Source: a phage
Sequence record: PZ386980.1
Direction: 5' to 3' (one strand)
Length of the DNA: 64,000 nucleotides
Below, piece after piece: positions 19,721 through 54,546 of the stretch. A program made the position numbers and the translations under genes. The notes under the pieces were generated by a model. The model saw nothing but the letters and a program-made list of their open reading frames with translations. It was not told where the DNA came from and did no database searches. Each line of letters begins with the position of its first letter. Position 1 is the first letter of the stretch.

Positions 19721-20248
19721 TTATGCGAGTACCGTCTTTAACCGTTCTTCAAACTTCCGAAGAGTATTCTGGCGTTCAGCTCTTTGCTTTTTGTAAGTTT
19801 CAATACGCTCTGAAATGAGATTGTATCGTTCATTTACTGTTTCTTTCATAAAATCAGGAATTTCACGAGAAGCTTTAATCTCGTCAAATTTATCAATAAC
19901 AGCTTGCTCTTCAGCAATTAAGTTATCATACATCAAAATATCTTTCTTGATGAACTCAATATCTTCTTGAGTTACACGAGATAACTTAGATGCTTTATCC
20001 TTTTTGTACTGTTCGTTAGTATCACGAGACCAGTGTAATGTACGATTTTTATTCGTATTCTTGTAAATTTCTACAATACCAATCTCATCGATAATAACGA
20101 TCCAATTCCAACGGGATTTGTAAATTTGTCCTCCATCAACAGTGATTTCACCACCGATTGAGACATCATTAAAGAACTTGCTTTGAGCTTCAGATTTAAA
20201 TTTACCATCATTGTAGTTTACCAAGTTGAAAATATCTTTAGCATTCAT
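19721..20248 (-). CDS. Hypothetical protein with charged C-terminal coiled coil
   Basis: 175 aa; GGAGGA Shine-Dalgarno; downstream of early promoter. Confidence 0.55.
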   Translation of the reverse strand: MNAKDIFNLVNYNDGKFKSEAQSKFFNDVSIGGEITVDGGQIYKSRWNWIVIIDEIGIVEIYKNTNKNRTLHWSRDTNEQYKKDKASKLSRVTQEDIEFIKKDILMYDNLIAEEQAVIDKFDEIKASREIPDFMKETVNERYNLISERIETYKKQRAERQNTLRKFEERLKTVLA

Positions 20249-20269
20249 TTTCTGTTCCTCCGTAGTTGA

Positions 20270-20320
20270 TAGTTGTATAGTATCACAGAGGAACAGTCTT
20301 GTAAACCACTAAAAGAAACT
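20270..20320 (-). promoter_or_regulatory. T4-type early promoter with conserved leader
   Basis: -35 GTTTAC, 18 nt spacer, -10 TACTAT, then ACAACTATCAACTAC shared with promoters at 22410, 25980, 37672. Confidence 0.5.
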
Positions 20321-21413: not shown

Positions 21414-22378
21414 TTTAATAATACCGTTTCAGCGATTTCTTCCCAACCGTTTTTGTCGGTCATAATAAAGTCAGCAAGATAAAGTGCAGTACGCAGTGAA
21501 ACATTACGTAAACGATTAACATTGACTTTCATCCATGATAATGCTTTATAAGTTTCTTCATCAGAAAGACCGCGCTTTTGCATCATGTCGGTTGAAAGAA
21601 TAACATCTTCAACCCTGACCATAATTTCTTCATTAGTGTGAACACCCAAATCCAAATAAACTGAGCGGGACACTAATGCTTGTAAATGTGGAGCAAGTTT
21701 AGTACCACGGTCTAATTCGCGGTCAATGTCAACGTTTGTGATAAAAACAATCGTTCCTTTAAATTCAAACTCACGCTCAATGCCTTTTTCTTCTAAGTAA
21801 GAAGATGCGGTGCTCCAGCAGACTTTACGGGTCTCTCCAGTGTCCAGAGCAGCTTTCAGAAGATTAAGAATGTCCATATCAGAGAAAACATCCACATCAT
21901 CAATCAAAAGGACAGAATTCTCTTCACGATTATTCCAAAGCTGTTCATAAAGACCAATACCAGAGATTTTACCATTAATGCTTTTATACTCAATGTATCC
22001 AATATCATTTGCTTTATTTAAAGCTTTATCTAAAGAATACGTTTTACCAATACCTGCTGCTCCCGAGATAATTAATGAACGAATGTTTCCGTTAATAATA
22101 CCATTCGTCATCATTCCCATAACATTAAATCTTTTATTAATGCGGGTTTTCATATCTTCATACGATTCTTTAACTTCTTCAACTTTTACACCATCATATG
22201 AAATGTCTGATTTGTAAACCCAAACACCGCGACGCTTACCGTCAATTTCAACAAAAACTTTACCATCTCCTTGTGCATCTACCGGAGCATTATCTGGGAA
22301 CCATTCGCCTAAGAGCTCAAAAGTTCCAGAGATTTCTTTACCGAAGTAGATACCCTTATTGATAGTTACAGTTTTCAT
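21410..22378 (-). CDS. AAA-type P-loop ATPase
   Basis: Start moved to ATG 22378 (GGAG Shine-Dalgarno; track start is TTG inside the promoter); Walker A GAAGIGKTY, Walker B VLLIDDVD. Confidence 0.7.
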   Translation of the reverse strand: MKTVTINKGIYFGKEISGTFELLGEWFPDNAPVDAQGDGKVFVEIDGKRRGVWVYKSDISYDGVKVEEVKESYEDMKTRINKRFNVMGMMTNGIINGNIRSLIISGAAGIGKTYSLDKALNKANDIGYIEYKSINGKISGIGLYEQLWNNREENSVLLIDDVDVFSDMDILNLLKAALDTGETRKVCWSTASSYLEEKGIEREFEFKGTIVFITNVDIDRELDRGTKLAPHLQALVSRSVYLDLGVHTNEEIMVRVEDVILSTDMMQKRGLSDEETYKALSWMKVNVNRLRNVSLRTALYLADFIMTDKNGWEEIAETVLLK

Positions 22379-22409
22379 TTTATTCTCCAAATCTGTATCA
22401 GTTGATAGT

Positions 22410-22465
22410 TGTATAGTACCATAAAGCTTTATGCTTGTAAACAACTTTGTGAAAAATTTTTGAAA
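22410..22465 (-). promoter_or_regulatory. T4-type early promoter (promoter part of a stem-loop/promoter cassette)
   Basis: UP element, -35 GTTTAC, TGg extended -10 TACTAT, conserved ACAACTATCAAC leader; directly downstream of hairpin 22473..22490. Confidence 0.55.
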
Positions 22466-25956: not shown

Positions 25957-25979
25957 GATGTTCTCCTCTTTATCTGATA

Positions 25980-26030
25980 GTTGTATAGTATCACAGCTCA
26001 AACGGAAAGTAAACCGGTAAAATGAAAAAA
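25980..26030 (-). promoter_or_regulatory. T4-type early promoter (promoter part of a stem-loop/promoter cassette)
   Basis: -35 GGTTTAC, -10 TACTAT, conserved ACAACTATCA leader; directly downstream of hairpin 26031..26046. Confidence 0.5.
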
Positions 26031-32375: not shown

Positions 32376-32849
32376 TTATTTGAACGATTTAACGTACTGA
32401 ATAGAACCCTTACTATTCACAAAGGCAATTTTACCATTTTTATTATACATGGTAGCAGTACGCTGATAACCATAGGTTTGTTTACCAGATTGATAACCAA
32501 CTAATGCAAAATTATCTTCACCCATTTTATTCTGTTTAGCGCGAATGCGTTCATGACCATGTGCCATAAGAACCTTAGCATCACCAGTTGCAATGGATCG
32601 ACGAGTTTTTTCATCTTCAACTGCATTAACAAAGTCGTCAAATGAATCAAATTTAGCATGAGATTTATTATACAATTTTCCATCTACTGCATAATTATAT
32701 CCCTGTACATCCATCTCAACTTCTGTACCATCATCCAATACAGCAGTAATTTTTTGACCTTTTTTAAATTTCAAAAGATCAGTAAAAGATTCAGCAATAA
32801 TTTGAGAATTAATAGCTGCTTCAGTGATAAATTCTTGATATGTTTTCAT
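32376..32849 (-). CDS. Internal (head-packaged) protein with capsid-targeting sequence
   Basis: 157 aa; N-terminus MKTYQEFITEA matches the T4 internal-protein targeting pattern; lies upstream of denV rather than between denV and e. Confidence 0.7.
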   Translation of the reverse strand: MKTYQEFITEAAINSQIIAESFTDLLKFKKGQKITAVLDDGTEVEMDVQGYNYAVDGKLYNKSHAKFDSFDDFVNAVEDEKTRRSIATGDAKVLMAHGHERIRAKQNKMGEDNFALVGYQSGKQTYGYQRTATMYNKNGKIAFVNSKGSIQYVKSFK

Positions 32850-36792: not shown

Positions 36793-37326
36793 TTATATCA
36801 TGCTACTTAAGAGATGTAAACTATTTTTAATTTTACAAATTCGTTCAGCTTCTTCAACAGCGGCAGTGATAATGCTTTTAGCTATAGGAGTACTAATATT
36901 AGTAGCTTTTACACTTAACACGATTTCTTTATCTTTACCAGGCCAACCCCACGATTTTTCACCATGAGTGCCTTTAATTACAGCAGACACCTCAAGTGAG
37001 CATCCATTATCGCATGTTTTTACATTAACAACCCAAGTGTCACTTTTCTCAACCGGTTTATCCCAGTAAATATTAAGAATACGTGGGACATCAAATTTAG
37101 CAGGGCAAATCTTAACCGTAAGACCTTCGCTTTCTAGCCAATTAATAAGAGGGCGTTCATACATGCGGCGATGTGGGCTTTGAACTCGACAAGCTTTGTA
37201 CCCATTGCTTGCGGCTTCACTAAGCTCTTCTAATACATGCTTTTGCATTATTGATAAGATACCATCAAAAGATTTTTCGGAAGTTTCATTCAGTTCGGTA
37301 TAAAGAGACATAACAGTTTTCCTCAA
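36793..37326 (-). CDS. Hypothetical protein
   Basis: ORF track (177 aa). Confidence 0.5.
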   Translation of the reverse strand: MRKTVMSLYTELNETSEKSFDGILSIMQKHVLEELSEAASNGYKACRVQSPHRRMYERPLINWLESEGLTVKICPAKFDVPRILNIYWDKPVEKSDTWVVNVKTCDNGCSLEVSAVIKGTHGEKSWGWPGKDKEIVLSVKATNISTPIAKSIITAAVEEAERICKIKNSLHLLSSMI

Positions 37327-37367
37327 ATTATAGGCTCATAATATCTCAATCATGAGCCTATGTAAAC

Positions 37368-37631
37368 TTATTTCATATTATTGAAATATTCTTCTGCGAT
37401 TTCGTCGTTATCATGGTAAACTTTAGAAGACAGTTTAACATAACCTTCAGCAGTGAACATGTTAATCACAACCTTTACAGTATACCACTGACCATCTTCA
37501 TTACCCATTACTGCGTAAGTTTCAAACATCGGATGATCAGGACCGATAACTTTAATATCATTCACTGTACGACCAAAATCTTCTGAAACACATTTCATAA
37601 AGAAGTTGAACAGTTCACCGTAATTATCCAT
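37368..37631 (-). CDS. Hypothetical small protein
   Basis: Trimmed to first ATG (GGAGAA Shine-Dalgarno); downstream of early promoter. Confidence 0.5.
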   Translation of the reverse strand: MDNYGELFNFFMKCVSEDFGRTVNDIKVIGPDHPMFETYAVMGNEDGQWYTVKVVINMFTAEGYVKLSSKVYHDNDEIAEEYFNNMK

Positions 37632-37671
37632 TTCATTCTCCAAGTTGTTTTCTGTATCAGTAGTTGATAGT

Positions 37672-37730
37672 TGTATAGTACCATAGAAGAACAGGGATGT
37701 AAACAGTTTTGTGAAAAAATTTTTAAAAAG
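37672..37730 (-). promoter_or_regulatory. T4-type early promoter with conserved leader
   Basis: UP element, -35 GTTTAC, -10 TACTAT, ACAACTATCAACTAC leader. Confidence 0.55.
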
Positions 37731-37833
37731 TTTTGGGGAATTCTAGGGCAGGGAGGGGAAATCAAAGGATAGGATAATATATTATAAAGGGTAGAAACTA
37801 AATGATGTCTAGAGAGGCCTGGAAAGGCCTAGA

Positions 37834-37868
37834 TACCAAAAAGCCCCAACCTTTCGGCTAGGGCTAAG
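37834..37868. repeat. 35-nt direct repeat, copy 1 (hairpin-forming) just 3' of ip gene
   Basis: taccaaaaagccccaacctttcggctagggctaag; 32/35 identical to 38393..38427. Confidence 0.75.
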
Positions 37869-37872
37869 AATG

Positions 37873-38346
37873 TTATTTGATTTGTTTAGCAGACCAAATG
37901 CGGTCTTTAATAATTTTTTGAATGTCTTCAACATACTCAAGAGAGTGAGCATGTGGGTTATCTTTGAAACTATAAGCACGAGCTAGTTTTTGGCCTTCAG
38001 TTTTGATTACTAAAAGCTCTTTAAGGATAGCTTCATATTTGGAGATAATTCCTTTAACAATATTTTTCTCTTGTGCGACTTTAGGATCTGCTTTAGGAGC
38101 AGGTTTACCCGAAGCCTTTGCAAAAGCAGCGCCAGTAGCAACTAAACTTTTCCAGGCCATACTAACTGCATTTCCCGTAAATCCTTCCGCTTTCATGTCG
38201 CGTGCGAACTGGAATCGCGATTCATCAGAAGCATCTTTGTAAGAATATTTACCCGCTGCAATGGCTGCTTTTGCGACAGCTTGAATTTCGGTGCTAGATG
38301 CTTCATTTAACACCGCTTCATTTAAAAATTGAGTATATGATTTCAT
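37873..38346 (-). CDS. Internal (head-packaged) protein with capsid-targeting sequence
   Basis: 157 aa; N-terminus MKSYTQFLNEA; Ala/Lys-rich; flanked by direct repeats; TATAAATA late promoter upstream. Confidence 0.7.
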   Translation of the reverse strand: MKSYTQFLNEAVLNEASSTEIQAVAKAAIAAGKYSYKDASDESRFQFARDMKAEGFTGNAVSMAWKSLVATGAAFAKASGKPAPKADPKVAQEKNIVKGIISKYEAILKELLVIKTEGQKLARAYSFKDNPHAHSLEYVEDIQKIIKDRIWSAKQIK

Positions 38347-38386
38347 CTTATTTCCTGTTTTAATTCGTGGATTTAATATACTACTA

Positions 38387-38394
38387 TATTTATA
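38387..38394 (-). promoter_or_regulatory. Late promoter TATAAATA for ip gene
   Basis: Exact TATAAATA on minus strand ~40 nt upstream of start. Confidence 0.5.
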
Positions 38395-38427
38395 CCAAAA
38401 AGCCCCAACCTTTCGGTCGGGGCTAAG
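38393..38427. repeat. 35-nt direct repeat, copy 2, 5' of ip gene
   Basis: taccaaaaagccccaacctttcggtcggggctaag. Confidence 0.75.
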
Positions 38428-38439
38428 CCTTGCGGCAAC

Positions 38440-38730
38440 CTTGTCGGGGTTCCACCTGCTAAGGCAAGTGTTTGTACGAAACGCCGGGATTCGAACCCGG
38501 TTATCAAGCAGTTGACGCTACTCAATATTTTTAAAAGGCCATATCTCGACCATATCCGAACGTTCCGTCAAAAACGCTACTCGGCTTACGGCAAAGATAT
38601 TTCCTCGAATCGATAATTCGGTGCGCCGTTTCTGCTGTGATATAAGGGGCATTAACAAAACATAAAGATTTATTAATGCCAGTCCTTAAACAGGGAACAT
38701 CAGTCCGACGACTTACCGGTAGCGACCCGG
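38440..38730 (-). ncRNA. Candidate stable RNA region (tRNA-like T-arm, several hairpins)
   Basis: Non-coding, GC-richer than surroundings; CCGGGTTCGAATCCCGG T-arm-like element at 38482..38500 without a full cloverleaf; position resembles T4 species 1/2 RNA genes. Confidence 0.25.
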
Positions 38731-38734
38731 TTTC

Positions 38735-39085
38735 TTAATATTCTTTTAAAGCATCAATTTGTTCACGGCGTTTACGCCATAAATCAATTGCTTCATAAGC
38801 AGATTCAGCATTTCGAATTAGCCGACATTTATGTAAAGACTTATGATTTTGATATTGTGTAGATAACGGAATTTTATCTAAAAGGTCTTTACGTTCAAAA
38901 TATTCGTAACCATCTAAACCAAATGAACGATTTTTGAGAAATTGCCAATGACCAAATTCGTTTTCGACATAAACATAATCTGCATGCTGATAAAGCAAAT
39001 TAATTACACGTTCAGAAATAACAGTATCATTATGATTAAAATAGAATGTTAAATCATGAACTACTAAATAAACATTGCCTTTCAT
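38735..39085 (-). CDS. Hypothetical protein between stable-RNA region and tRNA-Arg
   Basis: Trimmed to first ATG (track TTG start would overlap tRNA-Arg); 116 aa. Confidence 0.4.
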   Translation of the reverse strand: MKGNVYLVVHDLTFYFNHNDTVISERVINLLYQHADYVYVENEFGHWQFLKNRSFGLDGYEYFERKDLLDKIPLSTQYQNHKSLHKCRLIRNAESAYEAIDLWRKRREQIDALKEY

Positions 39086-39103
39086 ATTTTCCTCACTTAT
39101 AAT

Positions 39104-39180
<77 letters not shown>

Positions 39181-39184
39181 TATT

Positions 39185-39259
39185 TGGCGGACATGCATGG
39201 ATTCGAACCATGGACCAATTGATTAACAGTCAACTGCTCTACCACTGAGCTACACATCC
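39185..39259 (-). tRNA. tRNA-Asn (anticodon GTT)
   Basis: Manual cloverleaf: anticodon loop CTGTTAA, T-arm CATGG-TTCGAAT-CCATG, encoded CCA; acceptor stem has two G-U pairs. Confidence 0.7.
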
Positions 39260-39263
39260 AAAT

Positions 39264-39350
39264 TGGTGGGGAGTGATGGAGTCGAACCACCCGAGTCGCA
39301 ATGACAATGAATTTACAGTCCACACCGCTACCTCTACGGGATAACTCCCC
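39264..39350 (-). tRNA. tRNA-Tyr (anticodon GTA), class II with long variable arm
   Basis: 87 nt; perfect 7-bp acceptor stem GGGGAGT/ACTCCCC, anticodon loop CTGTAAA, 15-nt variable arm, encoded CCA. Confidence 0.7.
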
Positions 39351-39362
39351 TAATTCATAATT

Positions 39363-39437
39363 TGGTGGCCCTGGGTGGAATTGAACCACCATCTGGCGAT
39401 TATGAGTCGCTTGCTTGAACCTTCCAGCTACAGGGCC
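39363..39437 (-). tRNA. tRNA with CAT anticodon (Met, or Ile if lysidine-modified)
   Basis: Acceptor GGCCCTG/CAGGGCC, anticodon loop CTCATAA, T-loop TTCAATT, encoded CCA. Confidence 0.75.
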
Positions 39438-39438
39438 T

Positions 39439-39514
39439 TGGTGCTGATTGACGGAATCGAACCGCCGACCTTCTCATTACAAGTGAGTTGCTCTACCTAC
39501 TGAGCTAAATCAGC
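39439..39514 (-). tRNA. tRNA-Thr (anticodon TGT)
   Basis: Acceptor GCTGATT/AATCAGC, anticodon loop CTTGTAA, T-loop TTCGATT, encoded CCA. Confidence 0.85.
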
Positions 39515-39519
39515 AAAAC

Positions 39520-39609
39520 TGGCGGAGGTGATAGGATTCGAACCTATGAATCGCCGGAGCGACTGCCGGTTTTCAAGACCGGTGCATTCAACCACTCTGC
39601 CACACCTCC
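39520..39609 (-). tRNA. tRNA-Ser (anticodon TGA), class II
   Basis: 90 nt; anticodon arm CCGGT-CTTGAAA-ACCGG, long variable arm, T-loop TTCGAAT, encoded CCA. Confidence 0.85.
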
Positions 39610-39615
39610 AAATAT

Positions 39616-40266
39616 TTATATATTGTTAATTTGATTTAGAATTCTTTTTGCTTGAGTATGACTTACGCCAATATGCTTAGCATATTTAGATAATTCACCA
39701 CGCTTAGAAAAATCATATAATTTAGAAATTTCTATTCTTCTTTTTCTTTCATCCGCAGAAACTTTTGCTTCGTTTGCTTTTGCTATTTTACGTTTAGCTT
39801 CTTGAGAATGAGTTTTACCAGCAAAGCCATTCTTCATTAATCCATTTGAAGACCATCCTTTTAATTTTCCGTTAGAATGTGCCTTTTTAACACCCAATGA
39901 AATTAATTCGCGCTGCTGATCTGTCATAGGATAATTATTTATATGATCCCATCCACCTTCACCGCCAAGTTTTAAATTATACACATCTGGTCTATTTAAA
40001 AACTCTTCTGTAACAATATTTTTCTCGGCTTCAAGCATAGATTCTTTATCATCAAAATACTCTAATATTTCTTTAGAAAAATTTTCTATACCATATTTAT
40101 CTTGGGCTCTTTTTAATAATTTACCAGAACCCATATATCCATCATCTAAATTTTCGGTAGAATGCACACCAATATAAATTTTATTATTAATTTTATTTGT
40201 TATTTTATAAAGATAAAAATGCATATCAGTCCCTAATAAAGAACTGAGCGTCTCACGACGAGTCAT
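39616..40266 (-). CDS. segB: GIY-YIG homing endonuclease (SegB-like) inside the tRNA cluster
   Basis: 216 aa; FYLYKIT...KIYIGVHS...GYMGSG GIY-YIG motifs, basic C-terminal half; sits between tRNA-Gly and tRNA-Ser. Confidence 0.7.
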   Translation of the reverse strand: MTRRETLSSLLGTDMHFYLYKITNKINNKIYIGVHSTENLDDGYMGSGKLLKRAQDKYGIENFSKEILEYFDDKESMLEAEKNIVTEEFLNRPDVYNLKLGGEGGWDHINNYPMTDQQRELISLGVKKAHSNGKLKGWSSNGLMKNGFAGKTHSQEAKRKIAKANEAKVSADERKRRIEISKLYDFSKRGELSKYAKHIGVSHTQAKRILNQINNI

Positions 40267-40270
40267 AAAT

Positions 40271-40344
<74 letters not shown>

Positions 40345-40349
40345 AAATT

Positions 40350-40436
40350 TGGTGCGAGAAGTGGGACTCGAACCCACAAGGAAATCATTCCGCAGCATTT
40401 TAAGTGCTGTGCCTTTACCAATTTGACCATTCTCGC
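40350..40436 (-). tRNA. tRNA-Leu (anticodon TAA), class II
   Basis: 87 nt; anticodon arm CAGCA-CTTAAAA-TGCTG, long variable arm, encoded CCA. Confidence 0.85.
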
Positions 40437-40437
40437 G

Positions 40438-40510
40438 CTGGGAATAAAGGACTCGAACCTTTGCATCCTGGAATCAAAATCCAGTGCCTTACCAACTTGG
40501 CTAATTCCCA
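40438..40510 (-). tRNA. tRNA-Gln (anticodon TTG); 3' CCA not encoded
   Basis: Acceptor TGGGAAT/ATTCCCA, anticodon arm CTGGA-TTTTGAT-TCCAG, T-loop TTCGAGT; only 2 nt separate it from tRNA-Leu. Confidence 0.8.
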
Positions 40511-40607
40511 ATTATTAACAAAGGCTCTCAAGCAAGAACCCTTGATGATAGAGGGTATTAATCAGTGCGGTATGAGTTAATAATAACAAATAATTCTTAA
40601 AGCATAT

Positions 40608-40895
40608 TTACCATTTATGATAATACATATTTACGATGCACTCAAGACCCAAAGGATTCTTGAAAATATCATATTCAAGAGGACCTTTTTCTGTTTCAAT
40701 AAAGAAATCAAAATTTACTGTATTAAATTTATGGTCTTCCTTCACTAATTTAACTTGAGAAGATGAACGGTCAATGTAAACTTTTTCAACTTCAAAACAT
40801 GTTAAAATACCATAATCATCAATCAAGGCTTTAGCTGCTTCTTGATCATATTTATATCCATTTTCAATGGATGATACTTTTGCATAAAGAATCAT
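40608..40895 (-). CDS. Hypothetical protein
   Basis: ORF track (95 aa). Confidence 0.5.
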   Translation of the reverse strand: MILYAKVSSIENGYKYDQEAAKALIDDYGILTCFEVEKVYIDRSSSQVKLVKEDHKFNTVNFDFFIETEKGPLEYDIFKNPLGLECIVNMYYHKW

Positions 40896-41318: not shown

Positions 41319-41466
41319 TTAAACCAATTAAAAATGCTACTACAAGTGAAAATACATTTTCTGCTGTAGTTAATAATCCGCATATAAATCCAACAAACAT
41401 TGAAAAACTAAAAGCGGAAGCAGAAATTGCAATAGCAACATTTCGAATTAATTCACAACGTTTCAT
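41281..41466 (-). CDS. Small membrane protein
   Basis: 61 aa, two hydrophobic helices; early promoter directly upstream. Confidence 0.45.
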   Translation of the reverse strand: MKRCELIRNVAIAISASAFSFSMFVGFICGLLTTAENVFSLVVAFLIGLIAIVMDKISKGE

Positions 41467-41492
41467 TTTATTCTCCTCAGTAGTTGATAGGG

Positions 41493-41550
41493 TAATAGTA
41501 TCACAACTAAAACCCTATGTAAACAACTTTGTGAAATTATTTTAAATCTT
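41493..41550 (-). promoter_or_regulatory. T4-type early promoter
   Basis: UP element, -35 GTTTAC, -10 TACTAT. Confidence 0.5.
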
Positions 41551-41794
41551 CTAATCGTTTCTTCATCTTAGAACCATTTTTAGCGATTTCTCCTGCGTCA
41601 GAGCATAATGCTAAAAGTGCTTTAACTTTAGTTTGGTCTCCTTTAAAAGACGAAGGATCGACTGCAGCAGCAAGTTCTTTAATACGAGAGAAAAGACGCT
41701 CAGCTTCAGCTAAAGCCATTCCAAGCTTTACTTCCATACCATGAGAAGATTCAGTGATAATAGTTTCTGTAGCAAACTCTTTATAAGTTTTCAT
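41537..41794 (-). CDS. ipI: Internal protein I-like (capsid-targeted, candidate anti-restriction)
   Basis: 85 aa; N-terminus MKTYKEFATE; position between tRNA cluster and 57B as for T4 ipI. Confidence 0.7.
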   Translation of the reverse strand: MKTYKEFATETIITESSHGMEVKLGMALAEAERLFSRIKELAAAVDPSSFKGDQTKVKALLALCSDAGEIAKNGSKMKKRLEDLK

Positions 41795-41821
41795 TTTATT
41801 TTTCCTAATTAATTTTGATGA

Positions 41822-42564
<743 letters not shown>

Positions 42565-54507: not shown

Positions 54508-54512
54508 ATTAA

Positions 54513-54535
54513 GGGAGCCCATGGGCTCCCTTTTT
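54513..54535 (+). terminator. Rho-independent terminator after gene 8
   Basis: gggagcccatgggctccc (perfect 7-bp stem) followed by TTTTT. Confidence 0.65.
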
Positions 54536-54538
54536 CTT

Positions 54539-54546
54539 TATAAATA
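54539..54546 (+). promoter_or_regulatory. Late promoter TATAAATA for gene 9
   Basis: Exact TATAAATA ~25 nt upstream of gene 9 ATG. Confidence 0.6.

What the first reader, a model, noticed from the sequence alone, without database searches (positions are those of the whole stretch)
37834..38427. ip gene cassette bracketed by 35-nt hairpin-forming direct repeats
Near-identical 35-nt sequences (taccaaaaagccccaacctttcggNNNgggctaag; 32/35 identical) lie immediately 3' (37834..37868) and 5' (38393..38427) of the 157-aa ip gene, the upstream copy next to a TATAAATA late promoter. Direct repeats flanking a highly variable injected-protein gene suggest cassette exchange or deletion by homologous recombination, and each copy can fold into a GC hairpin that may also act as a terminator or RNA stabiliser.
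Basis: seen in the sequence. Interest (0 to 1): 0.6.

Follow-up and report, generated by a model that had tools for sequence, protein, structure and literature searches.

The report
Duplicated terminator brackets phage gene cassette
In this T4-like phage (RB51/RB68), two near-identical copies of a transcription terminator flank an optional late gene; related phages have one copy and no gene, or other genes joined at the same spot, so this is a clear but ordinary case of gene-module shuffling, and the gene looks like an unrecognised injected "internal protein".

Summary
The repeat is real: 36 nt, 33/36 identical, at 37833-37868 and 38392-38427. There are two copies in the window and two in the whole RB51 genome. 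On the transcribed (minus) strand each copy is a canonical intrinsic terminator: 10-bp stem, GAAA loop, U5.

The upstream copy ends the tRNA-rnaD-rnaC unit and overlaps a TATAAATA late promoter. The downstream copy ends a 157-codon ORF.

T4 and T6 have one copy and no ORF, and the length difference is exactly one repeat period (559 bp). About 800 related genomes show four states of the rnaC/e.8 gap: empty, ORF157, ORF187, or both. Every module junction falls at the end of a terminator U-tract.

Both cargo genes start with an internal-protein-like capsid-targeting leader (MKSYTQFLNEA, MKTYAEFLTEA) followed by L-x-E sites. No database record sampled names them ip genes.

- The ip label is inference.
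- The gene is conserved, not highly variable.
- The repeat's first job is termination.

The RB51 GenBank record already notes the flanking repeat. Shuffling through regulatory elements is published for T4-like phages (PeSLs, IP loci). The new part is a candidate third IP locus.

The parts
38392..38427 (-). Terminator copy A (rnaC-proximal). Hairpin 38424-38401 (AGCCCCGACC GAAA GGUUGGGGCU), then a U-tract and GGUAU. It ends the tRNA-rnaD-rnaC transcription unit.
   Evidence: The orthologous single copy in T4 is 35/36 identical.
38387..38394 (-). TATAAATA, the T4-type late promoter box. Its first 3 nt lie inside repeat copy A. It sits about 40 nt upstream of the ORF start.
   Evidence: The same terminator-TATAAATA arrangement is conserved upstream of homologues in Jiaodavirus and Mosigvirus phages. 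Promoter definition from PMC2988020.
37873..38346 (-). ORF157 (RB32ORF132c / RB51ORF140 / RB68_138). A candidate internal (injected) protein: leader MKSYTQFLNEAVLNEA with two L-N-E|A sites. It is predicted to be basic and all-helical.
37833..37868 (-). Terminator copy B (e.8-proximal). Hairpin 37865-37842 (AGCCCUAGCC GAAA GGUUGGGGCU), then a U-tract and GGUAU. It ends the ORF157 transcript.
37869..38427 (-). One repeat period (559 bp): copy A, late promoter, leader and ORF157. This is exactly the segment absent from T4 and T6.
37816..37832 (-). Second small hairpin (GGCCUUUCCAGGCC) just downstream of copy B. It has no U-tract. It belongs to the e.8-side flank and is present in T4 in weaker form.
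   Evidence: (I3).
37675..37703 (-). Early promoter of e.8 (TTTACA-17-TACTAT, TG-extended). It marks the start of the next module.
38475..38738 (-). Stable RNA genes rnaC (38475-38613) and rnaD (38619-38738), the upstream neighbours whose unit copy A terminates.
   Evidence: RB68 and T4 annotations mapped onto the window. Rfam has no family for them.

Best explanation
The 36-nt repeat is the Rho-independent terminator of the tRNA/rnaD/rnaC transcription unit, and it is present twice. One copy stays at the end of rnaC. The second closes a self-contained late-gene module (TATAAATA late promoter, ribosome-binding site, ORF157, terminator) that sits between rnaC and e.8.

Each copy works first of all as a terminator and 3'-end stabiliser. 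This insulates the late module from the early/middle tRNA transcripts upstream and from the early e.8 promoter downstream.

Because the two copies are direct repeats, homologous recombination between them removes or adds exactly one 559-bp period. That recombination could be unequal crossover, or loop-out and re-integration of a circle as in the PeSL mini-circle model. Recombination at terminator ends also joins this module to others. This generates the four states seen in nature: empty, ORF157, ORF187, and both.

ORF157 and its neighbour module ORF187 are most likely prohead-targeted, gp21-processed internal proteins injected with the DNA. That would make rnaC/e.8 a third IP-type locus.

Shown: the repeat, the hairpin/U-tract anatomy, the exact one-period indel, the population polymorphism, the junction positions, and the leader similarity.

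Inferred: termination activity, late transcription, recombination at the repeats as the cause, and packaging and injection of the protein.
For: (1) Anatomy: a 10-bp GC-rich stem, GAAA loop and U5 on the coding strand for both copies. The same sites are annotated as terminators in G4507 and PhAPEC2.

(2) Structure conservation across 20 distinct copies: 91% of cells are paired, against 28-69% for slid controls. One pair shows a two-sided C-G to G-C change, and several changes are wobble-compatible and one-sided.

(3) T4 has one copy. Its left flank matches the e.8 side of the window and its right flank matches the rnaC side. The gap is 284 bp in T4 and 843 bp here, a difference of 559 bp, which is the repeat spacing.

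(4) A second independent one-period indel: RB14 and RB69 (rnaC-terminator-ORF187) differ from a15 and Phaginator (rnaC-terminator-ORF157-terminator-ORF187) by one period.

(5) Copy number tracks the gene. The 36-mer hits 815 records at 1287 places. After removing about 103 single Klebsiella hits, 472 extra places remain. That compares with 470 records holding a full-length ORF157-family gene. T4, T2, T6 and RB59 have one copy.

(6) All three downstream modules are found directly after GGGGCUUUUU: GGTATAAATA (ORF157), AGTTTGAATCAC (ORF187) and GGTATCTAGGCC (e.8). All combinations occur.

(7) A Mosigvirus-type contig has two identical copies of its own variant (GGCCC...GGGCC), and they flank a different, two-gene cargo.

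(8) Rough frequencies in the phage collection, derived: about 270 ORF157 only, 128 both, about 35 ORF187 only, about 80 empty.

(9) Evidence that the cargo is IP-like:
- The ORF157 leader ranks third of 617 Met-initiated frames in the window, directly after the annotated Ip4 and Ip5. Its score is 30.6, against a next best of 19.8 and a mean of -1.9 (sd 6.8).
- The leader is conserved in homologues from three genera.
- ORF187 starts MKTYAEFLTEA.
- The L-x-E sites match the gp21 motifs ITE and LTE (PMC5694885).
- Both proteins are lysine-rich, with pI about 9.5.
- The late promoters are consensus or the common A(-13) variant.

(10) Precedent: recombination at composite promoter/terminator elements shuffles ORFs in T4-like phages, and the known IP loci have analogous flanking elements.
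Against: - No experiment here shows termination, late transcription, packaging or recombination at the repeat.
- TATAAATA is not enriched in the window as a whole: 12 found against 11 expected. The promoter call therefore rests on position and cross-genus conservation.
- Homologues in Jiaodavirus and in QL01-type Mosigvirus have a different downstream terminator directly after the gene. The repeat is thus not intrinsic to the gene.
- The ORF187 module is bounded by only about 9-12 nt of shared sequence (GGGCTTTTTxGT), not by the 36-mer.
- The flanks (rnaC, e.8) are more than 90% identical over hundreds of bp between phages. Ordinary double crossover in mixed infection would move the cassette without using the repeats.
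- ORF157 gives no hit to PHROG or Pfam internal-protein families. It matches only phrog_2280, of unknown function. It has no informative fold match.
- Published statements place ip genes in only two loci.
Confidence: 0.75

Rival explanations
1. The repeats are passive. Each module simply needs a terminator, and the two copies are a historical by-product. The cassette moves between phages by ordinary double crossover in the long homologous flanks, possibly boosted by co-conversion from the SegB-like homing endonuclease about 1.2 kb away. It does not move by recombination within the 36-mer.
For: - The flanks are more than 90% identical over hundreds of bp across hundreds of genomes.
- A SegB-like GIY-YIG gene lies in the adjacent tRNA cluster.
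- Transfer of DNA next to homing endonucleases is recognised in these phages.
- Homologues in other genera lack the downstream repeat.
Against: - Two independent indels are each exactly one repeat period.
- Both copies in one genome share lineage-specific variants: CGA/CGA, CUU/CUU, and GGCCC/GGCCC. This implies exchange between the copies.
- This rival explains spread between phages but not how the clean empty and filled alleles arose. It is compatible with the main explanation rather than exclusive of it.
Confidence: 0.3
2. The repeats are a target-site duplication or att-like core left by a transposon or by site-specific integration of a mobile cassette.
For: The formal pattern fits: one copy at empty sites and two flanking copies at filled sites.
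Against: - The cargo holds only a 157-aa ORF with no recombinase, transposase or nuclease signature.
- The unit has no terminal inverted repeats other than the hairpin itself.
- 36 bp is far longer than typical target duplications.
- The duplicated sequence is a functional-looking terminator.
- The neighbouring ORF187 module uses a different 3' hairpin.
Confidence: 0.04
3. ORF157 is a late non-virion protein. The N-terminal resemblance to IP leaders is coincidental or reflects a shared translation-initiation region, so this is not an ip cassette.
For: - Every record calls it hypothetical.
- It has no profile hit to IP families.
- Only 6 of 11 leader residues are identical to MKTYQEFIAEA.
- The literature lists two IP loci.
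Against: - The leader score is a clear outlier, third of 617 frames behind the two annotated IPs.
- A second, otherwise dissimilar cargo gene at the same locus has an even closer leader.
- The leader and L-x-E site persist in homologues that are only 35-55% identical.
- The gene has a late promoter and a basic, lysine-rich composition.
Confidence: 0.35
4. The two hairpins are independent, convergent terminators that are similar by chance.
For: GC-rich hairpins with GNRA loops are common terminator designs. An 88%-similar 33-mer occurs in unrelated Klebsiella phages next to a baseplate gene.
Against: - Identity is 33/36 and includes the unpaired flanks (CUUAG before the stem, GGUAU after the U-tract).
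- There were 0 matches in 100 shuffles.
- Copy number correlates with the ORF across about 700 genomes.
Confidence: 0.01

Closest known systems
PeSL / PmSL elements (promoter-early or promoter-middle stem-loops) of T4-like phages: Arbiol et al. 2010 (PMC2839356), Comeau et al. 2014 (PMC4122927)
   Same: These are short composite regulatory sequences (terminator stem-loop plus promoter) in intergenic spaces that flank optional ORFs. A related phage carries a single element in place of element-ORF-element. The proposed mechanism is homologous recombination between elements, including excision and integration of mini-circles, and it carries the ORF with its own expression signals.
   Different: - The repeated part here is only the intrinsic terminator plus 3 nt of a late (gp55-type TATAAATA) promoter. 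There is no sigma70-like -35/-10 early or Mot-box middle promoter.
- Only two copies exist per genome, rather than a dispersed family.
- The hairpin is a strong 10-bp GC stem with a GNRA loop.
- Mini-circles were not tested.
Conserved elements flanking the two known IP loci of T-even phages (Repoila et al. 1994, as described in PMC2839356 and PMC12373910)
   Same: The cargo genes are unrelated to each other but share an N-terminal capsid-targeting leader. The loci vary in number and identity of genes between phages, and repeated regulatory sequences sit at gene boundaries. The window's own Ip5 gene shows this pattern.
   Different: - Those elements are built on early promoters with weak AT-rich stem-loops. 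Here the element is a GC-rich terminator with a late promoter.
- The locus (rnaC/e.8) is not one of the two described.
- Neither ORF157 nor ORF187 is named as an IP in any record or paper consulted here. I could not read Repoila 1994 or Comeau 2007.
T4 internal proteins IPI, IPII and IPIII, and Ip4-Ip10
   Same: - An MK(T/S)Y.(E/Q)F(I/L).E leader followed by an L/I-x-E gp21 site.
- Small, basic, non-essential proteins.
- Variable presence between phages.
   Different: - No sequence or fold similarity beyond the leader.
- Packaging, cleavage and injection are untested.
- A target such as a GmrSD-type restriction enzyme is unknown.
Morons of lambdoid phages
   Same: A single accessory gene with its own promoter and terminator, inserted between two resident genes.
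   Different: Morons are thought to insert by illegitimate recombination without conserved flanking sequence. Here the flanks are a duplicated resident terminator.
T4 deletions at GGGC/GCCC motifs (Mosig et al. 1998, as cited in PMC2839356)
   Same: The breakpoints of the ORF187 module fall in GGGCUUUUU at the 3' arm of GCCC...GGGC hairpins.
   Different: Those were laboratory deletion mutants in another region. No link was tested here.

Membership tests
Intrinsic (Rho-independent) terminator | A GC-rich hairpin immediately followed by a U-tract on the transcribed strand | tested here: met
   Both copies have a 10-bp stem (6-7 G-C pairs), a GAAA loop and U5, with energies of -19.8 and -17.8 kcal/mol. 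Pairing is kept in 91% of cells across 20 variants.
Intrinsic (Rho-independent) terminator | Transcripts end at the U-tract in vivo or in vitro | not testable with these tools
   This needs Term-seq, 3'-RACE or in vitro transcription.
PeSL (promoter-early stem-loop) element | A strong sigma70-like early promoter (-35/-10 with an AT-rich upstream region) within the repeated element | tested here: not met
   The 36-mer holds no -35/-10 pair. The adjacent promoter is the late TATAAATA box. The nearest early promoter (37703-37675) is outside the repeat.
PeSL (promoter-early stem-loop) element | A stem-loop acting as a terminator or attenuator within the element | tested here: met
   (predicted only).
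PeSL (promoter-early stem-loop) element | Elements flank ORFs that are inserted, deleted or replaced between close relatives, and a single element sits at the empty site | tested here: met
   T4 and T6 have a single copy, RB51 has a double copy, and the difference is exactly one period. Four configurations exist.
PeSL (promoter-early stem-loop) element | Circular excision products (mini-circles) are detectable | not testable with these tools
   This needs inverse PCR on phage lysates.
T4-type internal (injected) protein | An N-terminal capsid-targeting leader resembling MKTYQEFIAE | tested here: met
   MKSYTQFLNEA scores 30.6 against five known leaders. It ranks third of 617 frames, after Ip4 and Ip5, and lies about 4.8 sd above the mean. 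The leader is conserved in homologues.
T4-type internal (injected) protein | A prohead-protease (gp21) site, L/I-x-E, at the end of the leader | tested here: met
   ORF157 has FLNE|A (residue 10) and VLNE|A (residue 15). ORF187 has FLTE|A. The motif is taken from ITE and LTE in T4 Alt. Cleavage itself was not tested.
T4-type internal (injected) protein | Present in the mature head and injected with the DNA | not testable with these tools
   This needs virion proteomics and injection assays.
T4-type internal (injected) protein | Sequence-profile membership in a family annotated as an internal protein | tested here: not met
   The only match is phrog_2280 (unknown function), with no Pfam family. 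Ip4 and Ip5 from the same window hit 'internal virion/head protein' PHROGs. IP families are unrelated to one another beyond the leader, so this is a weak criterion.
T4-type internal (injected) protein | Encoded in one of the two described IP loci (next to 57B, or the denV/e region) | tested here: not met
   The gene lies between rnaC and e.8. The known loci of this phage hold Ip5 and Ip4.
Transposon or site-specific mobile element with target duplication | Cargo encodes a recombinase or transposase, and the element has defined terminal inverted repeats | tested here: not met
   The only cargo is ORF157, with no such domain. No terminal inverted repeats were found.

The most novel reading that the evidence does not exclude
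The gap between rnaC and e.8 is a third, so far unrecognised internal-protein locus of T-even-type phages. Its two cargo genes, ORF157 (about 470 phage records) and ORF187 (about 165 records), would be new prohead-targeted, injected proteins. By analogy with Ip1-3 they would probably act as inhibitors of host defences. They would be shuffled as late-promoter/terminator modules whose linker is the duplicated rnaC terminator, a 'late' counterpart of PeSL elements.
Probability: 0.45. Interest if true: 0.6.

Novelty: new member of a known kind. Interest (0 to 1): 0.4.

Why it matters
Internal proteins of T-even phages are injected anti-defence factors. Ip1, Ip2 and Ip3 each block a different GmrSD-type restriction enzyme (PMC12373910), and only about ten families in two loci are on record. 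Two widespread genes with the same targeting leader at a third locus would be ready-made candidates for new defence inhibitors. They could also serve as natural tags for packaging foreign proteins.

The locus is also a clean natural example of terminators serving as recombination linkers between gene modules. All four allelic states are common in sequenced phages, so the PeSL-type shuffling model can be tested directly by PCR in a well-behaved laboratory phage.

The repeat itself is not surprising. It is already noted in GenBank and fits published models.

Tried and rejected
- Exact-pattern scan of IMG/VR for the 22-nt core gave only 3 contigs, too few for a survey. I used the INPHARED phage collection instead.
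- AlphaFold model of ORF157: all-helical, mean pLDDT 74, pTM 0.41. Foldseek against BFVD and PDB gave only its own homologue and nothing else with E <= 0.001. There is no functional clue.
- Pfam: no significant family for ORF157 or ORF187.
- PHROGs: both fall in phrog_2280. Pairwise BLASTP aligns only the 11-aa leader, so paralogy is unproven.
- Rfam scan of 37300-40700 found only tRNAs and nothing for the repeat or for rnaC/rnaD.
- TATAAATA as stand-alone evidence: rejected, because it is not enriched in the window (12 against 11 expected).
- An apparent extra 436-bp configuration (two pieces, 717-bp span) turned out to be the normal two-gene arrangement, with the second terminator copy joined in by the tool.
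- Repoila et al. 1994 and Miller et al. 2003 are not held in the library, and Comeau et al. 2007 has no PMC id in the reference list I saw, so I did not read it. I could not check whether they list these ORFs as IPs.
- A search for the ORF names in the literature found nothing relevant. The supplements of the 2025 IP paper do not contain these sequences.
- Target-site duplication and chance convergence were considered and rejected (see rival explanations).
Full report
Origin and layout. The window is 100% identical to phages RB51 and RB68 (Tequatrovirus) over the region examined. Window position equals RB51 position minus 32145. All genes around the finding are on the minus strand. In the direction of transcription the order is: tRNA.4-tRNA.2, a tRNA cluster interrupted by a SegB-like GIY-YIG gene, a small ORF, the stable RNAs rnaD and rnaC, the 157-codon ORF, then e.8, an e.7 replacement, and e.6 onward toward lysozyme e.

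The observation. They extend to 36 nt: ATACCAAAAAGCCCCAACCTTTCGG[CTA/TCG]GGGCTAAG, at 37833-37868 and 38392-38427, with 33/36 identity and 559 nt start-to-start. With up to three mismatches allowed there are no other copies in the 64 kb, and none appeared in 100 shuffles. The complete RB51 genome also has just two.

What the repeat is. Read on the gene's strand, each copy is CUUAG-AGCCCNNNCC-GAAA-GGUUGGGGCU-UUUU-GGUAU. That is a 10-bp GC-rich stem, a GNRA tetraloop and a U-tract, which is a canonical intrinsic terminator. The consensus scan ranks them as the two best terminators in 10 kb. The hairpins fold at -19.8 and -17.8 kcal/mol. The three differences between the copies (CGA versus UAG in the 5' arm) all preserve pairing with the unchanged 3' arm through G-U or A-U. 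That only makes sense for RNA on this strand.

I collected 20 distinct copies from 15 phages or contigs. Across them, 91% of cells are paired, against 28-69% when the partner is slid by 1-3 columns. One pair switches C-G to G-C on both sides. The Mosigvirus 'UU' variant opens two central pairs. Independent annotators marked the same sites as terminators in G4507 and PhAPEC2.

Copy A therefore ends the tRNA-rnaD-rnaC unit. Its last three bases are the first three of a perfect TATAAATA box (38394-38387), which sits about 40 nt upstream of the ORF start, with an AGGAAA ribosome-binding site in between. Copy B ends the ORF. The octamer alone is not significant: 12 occur in the window against 11 expected. 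However, the terminator-UUUUU-(A/G)GUAUAAAUA arrangement is conserved upstream of homologues in Jiaodavirus (Klebsiella phage phiKp_22) and QL01-type Mosigvirus. PhAPEC2 has AATAAATA, the commonest natural variant of the T4 late promoter.

Comparison with relatives. T4 has e.8 and rnaC in the same order with a 284-bp gap instead of 843 bp. The 559-bp difference equals the repeat period. In the alignment, T4's single terminator is joined on the left to the e.8-side flank of the window and on the right to the rnaC-side flank. This is exactly what recombination between the two copies would leave, or what insertion at the resident terminator would start from.

Using T4's empty site as a query against 50,697 phage records gave discrete classes:
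- A 491-bp span: empty (T4, T6, ACG-C40 and others).
- A span of about 1046-1050 bp: this cassette.
- A span of about 1175-1180 bp: RB14, FL12, ECO07P1.
- A class in which the two flanks are too far apart to be joined.

Fetching examples showed that the third class carries a different gene, ORF187 (RB14ncORF136c). The fourth class carries both genes, in the order rnaC, ORF157, ORF187, e.8. RB69 has ORF187, frameshifted into ORF148c/149c. PhAPEC2 has both genes.

Counts:
- ORF157 DNA in 401 records.
- ORF157-family protein, full length, in 470 records.
- ORF187 in 165 records.
- The ORF157|ORF187 junction in 128 records.
- Empty, or single-cargo with joinable flanks, in 389 records.

From these I derive roughly 270 ORF157-only, 128 both, 35 ORF187-only and 80 empty. 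These numbers are approximate, because the thresholds differ and RefSeq and GenBank duplicates are included. Empty sites occur at flank identities from 100% down to 92% relative to T4, interleaved with filled ones. This hints at repeated gain or loss.

The repeat tracks the gene. The 36-mer matches 815 records at 1287 places. Setting aside about 103 Klebsiella phages with one unrelated look-alike next to a baseplate gene leaves 472 'second' copies. That compares with 470 genomes holding a full-length ORF157-family gene. Every listed genome with the ORF has two copies, apart from one sampled record with three places, which I did not examine. T4, T2, T6 and RB59 have one.

Junction anatomy. Directly after GGGGCUUUUU, three continuations occur: GGTATAAATA (ORF157 module), AGTTTGAATCAC... 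(ORF187 module) and GGTATCTAGGCC... (e.8 module). All of these combinations are found in nature: rnaC followed by ORF157, ORF187 or e.8; ORF157 followed by ORF187 or e.8; and ORF187 followed by e.8.

RB14 relates to a15 exactly as T4 relates to RB51: one repeat period more or less. ORF187 ends with its own, different hairpin (CCCUAUC-UAAAU-GAUAGGG), followed by CUUUUUGGUAUCUAGG. Its indel is therefore bounded only by GGGCUUUUU(A/G)GU. This recalls the GGGC/GCCC-associated T4 deletions cited by Arbiol et al..

In a Mosigvirus-type contig (L018) the resident terminator has a compensated variant (AGGCCC...GGGCCU). Two 31-nt identical copies of that variant flank a two-gene cargo: the ORF157 homologue with its own private terminator, plus a DUF7338 membrane protein. 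Copies within one genome tend to share lineage-specific variants (CGA/CGA, CUU/CUU, GGCCC/GGCCC). This points to exchange between copies or to repeated re-creation of the duplication. RB51 (CGA/UAG), L016, L019 and phiE142 (CUU/UAG) are exceptions. The UAG allele travels with the 3' end of the ORF in both a Tequatrovirus and a Mosigvirus, so the duplication is not recent.

Is it an ip gene? ORF157 begins MKSYTQFLNEAVLNEA. I scored the first 11 residues of every Met-initiated frame of at least 40 codons in the window against the leaders of T4 IPI-III and RB51 Ip4 and Ip5. ORF157 ranks third of 617, directly behind Ip4 and Ip5 themselves. Its score is 30.6, against 19.8 for the next frame and a mean of -1.9 with sd 6.8.

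The leader, followed by an L-x-E|A/S site, is retained in homologues down to 35-55% identity from Mosigvirus, Klebsiella and Yersinia phages. The second cargo gene, ORF187, starts MKTYAEFLTEA. It shares nothing else with ORF157 by BLASTP, although both match phrog_2280. This is the hallmark of IPs as described in the literature: unrelated proteins united by a leader.

Both proteins are lysine-rich, with pI about 9.5 after the predicted cleavage. Both have a late promoter or its A(-13) variant.

Against this reading:
- No record or cluster member is named an internal protein.
- There is no profile or fold link to any IP.
- The literature consulted places ip genes in two loci only, and even remarks on their absence elsewhere.

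I put the IP reading at about 0.55-0.65.

The homologue in Jiaodavirus sits in the same place, right after the tRNA cluster and its terminator. This suggests that the gene family is old at this position and that the empty T4 state is derived. The direction of change cannot be settled from the data here.

Mechanism and rivals. The best-supported account is that the repeat is a duplicated terminator. It insulates a self-contained late module, and as a direct repeat it allows loss or gain of exactly one period. More generally, terminator ends act as the linkers at which modules of this locus are recombined. This is the logic of PeSL elements and of the elements around the classical IP loci. The window's own Ip5 gene is flanked by direct copies of an early-promoter/stem-loop element. 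The difference here is that the linker is an intrinsic terminator abutting a late promoter.

The main caveat is that transfer between co-infecting phages needs only the long homologous flanks. It may also be helped by the SegB-like homing endonuclease about 1.2 kb away. The repeats may therefore explain how the alleles arise rather than how they spread.

A transposon-type target duplication is unlikely. There is no recombinase, there are no terminal inverted repeats, the duplication is 36 bp long, and the duplicated sequence is a functional element. Chance convergence is excluded.

Verdict. It is an already-annotated repeat and belongs to a published class of phage genome plasticity. The part that appears unreported is that the cargo, and a second cargo gene at the same site, carry internal-protein leaders. 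That points to a third IP-type locus found in several hundred sequenced phages. It is a modest but testable lead, given current interest in injected anti-restriction proteins.

Noticed in passing
window 41537-41794 (-) and flanks, about 41430-41900: The annotated Ip5 gene is flanked on both sides by direct copies of an early-promoter/stem-loop element (TTTCACAAAGTTGTTTACA ... GATACTATTACC). T4 ipI has the same flanks. This matches the IP-locus elements described by Repoila 1994 and Arbiol 2010.
   Followed up: partly
window 37629-37727; also 22376-22465, 20248-20306, 41477-41546, 25975-26014: The e.8 upstream region (early promoter with an AT-rich upstream part and leader) is 71-83% similar to at least four other intergenic sites in the window. 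These form a dispersed family of conserved early-promoter regions.
   Followed up: no
window 39616-40266 (-): A 216-aa GIY-YIG SegB-like homing endonuclease gene lies inside the tRNA cluster, about 1.2 kb from the cassette. RB68 annotates it as truncated. It could drive co-conversion of the neighbouring polymorphic locus.
   Followed up: no
window 38735-39085 (-): A small ORF (RB51ncORF141c, similar to RB69ORF150c) sits between rnaD and tRNA-Arg. T4 has only 1 nt there. This is another indel in the same neighbourhood.
   Followed up: no
window 36793-37311 (-): T4 e.7 is replaced by an unrelated ORF (RB32ORF130c, similar to RB69ORF146c) between e.6 and e.8.
   Followed up: no
window 32376-32849 (-): Ip4 lies between vs.8 and denV, and there is no ip gene between denV and e. 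T4 has ipII and ipIII between denV and e. The second classical IP locus is therefore arranged differently in this phage.
   Followed up: no
window about 54510-54546 (+): A second terminator-plus-late-promoter composite: AAGGGAGCCCATGGGCTCCCTTTTTCTT followed directly by TATAAATA and a gene start. The terminator/TATAAATA design therefore recurs in the late region.
   Followed up: no
L012 (RB69) 1801-2363; L009 (RB14) 605-1168: The RB69 copy of ORF187 is split by a frameshift into ORF148c and ORF149c, yet it is 97.6% identical in protein to the RB14 copy. I did not compare that with the divergence of other RB69 genes; if it is unusually close, it suggests recent transfer of this module or region between genera.
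   Followed up: partly
L018 1998-2573: In a Mosigvirus-type contig the terminator repeats enclose a second cargo gene. It encodes a DUF7338 / phrog_2143 membrane protein with no IP-like leader. In L019 only a remnant of this gene is left.
   Followed up: partly
Klebsiella Slopekvirus phages such as KP27 (NC_020080.1 64126-64158): About 100 Klebsiella phage genomes carry a 33-nt sequence 88% identical to the terminator, next to a baseplate wedge gene. It is unrelated in context and is either convergent or an old shared terminator design.
   Followed up: no
window 37873-38346 (-) versus ORF187: ORF157 and ORF187 both match phrog_2280 over their full length (E 3e-60 and 1e-53), but pairwise BLASTP aligns only the 11-residue leader. 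Either they are very remote paralogues or the PHROG is a composite family.
   Followed up: partly
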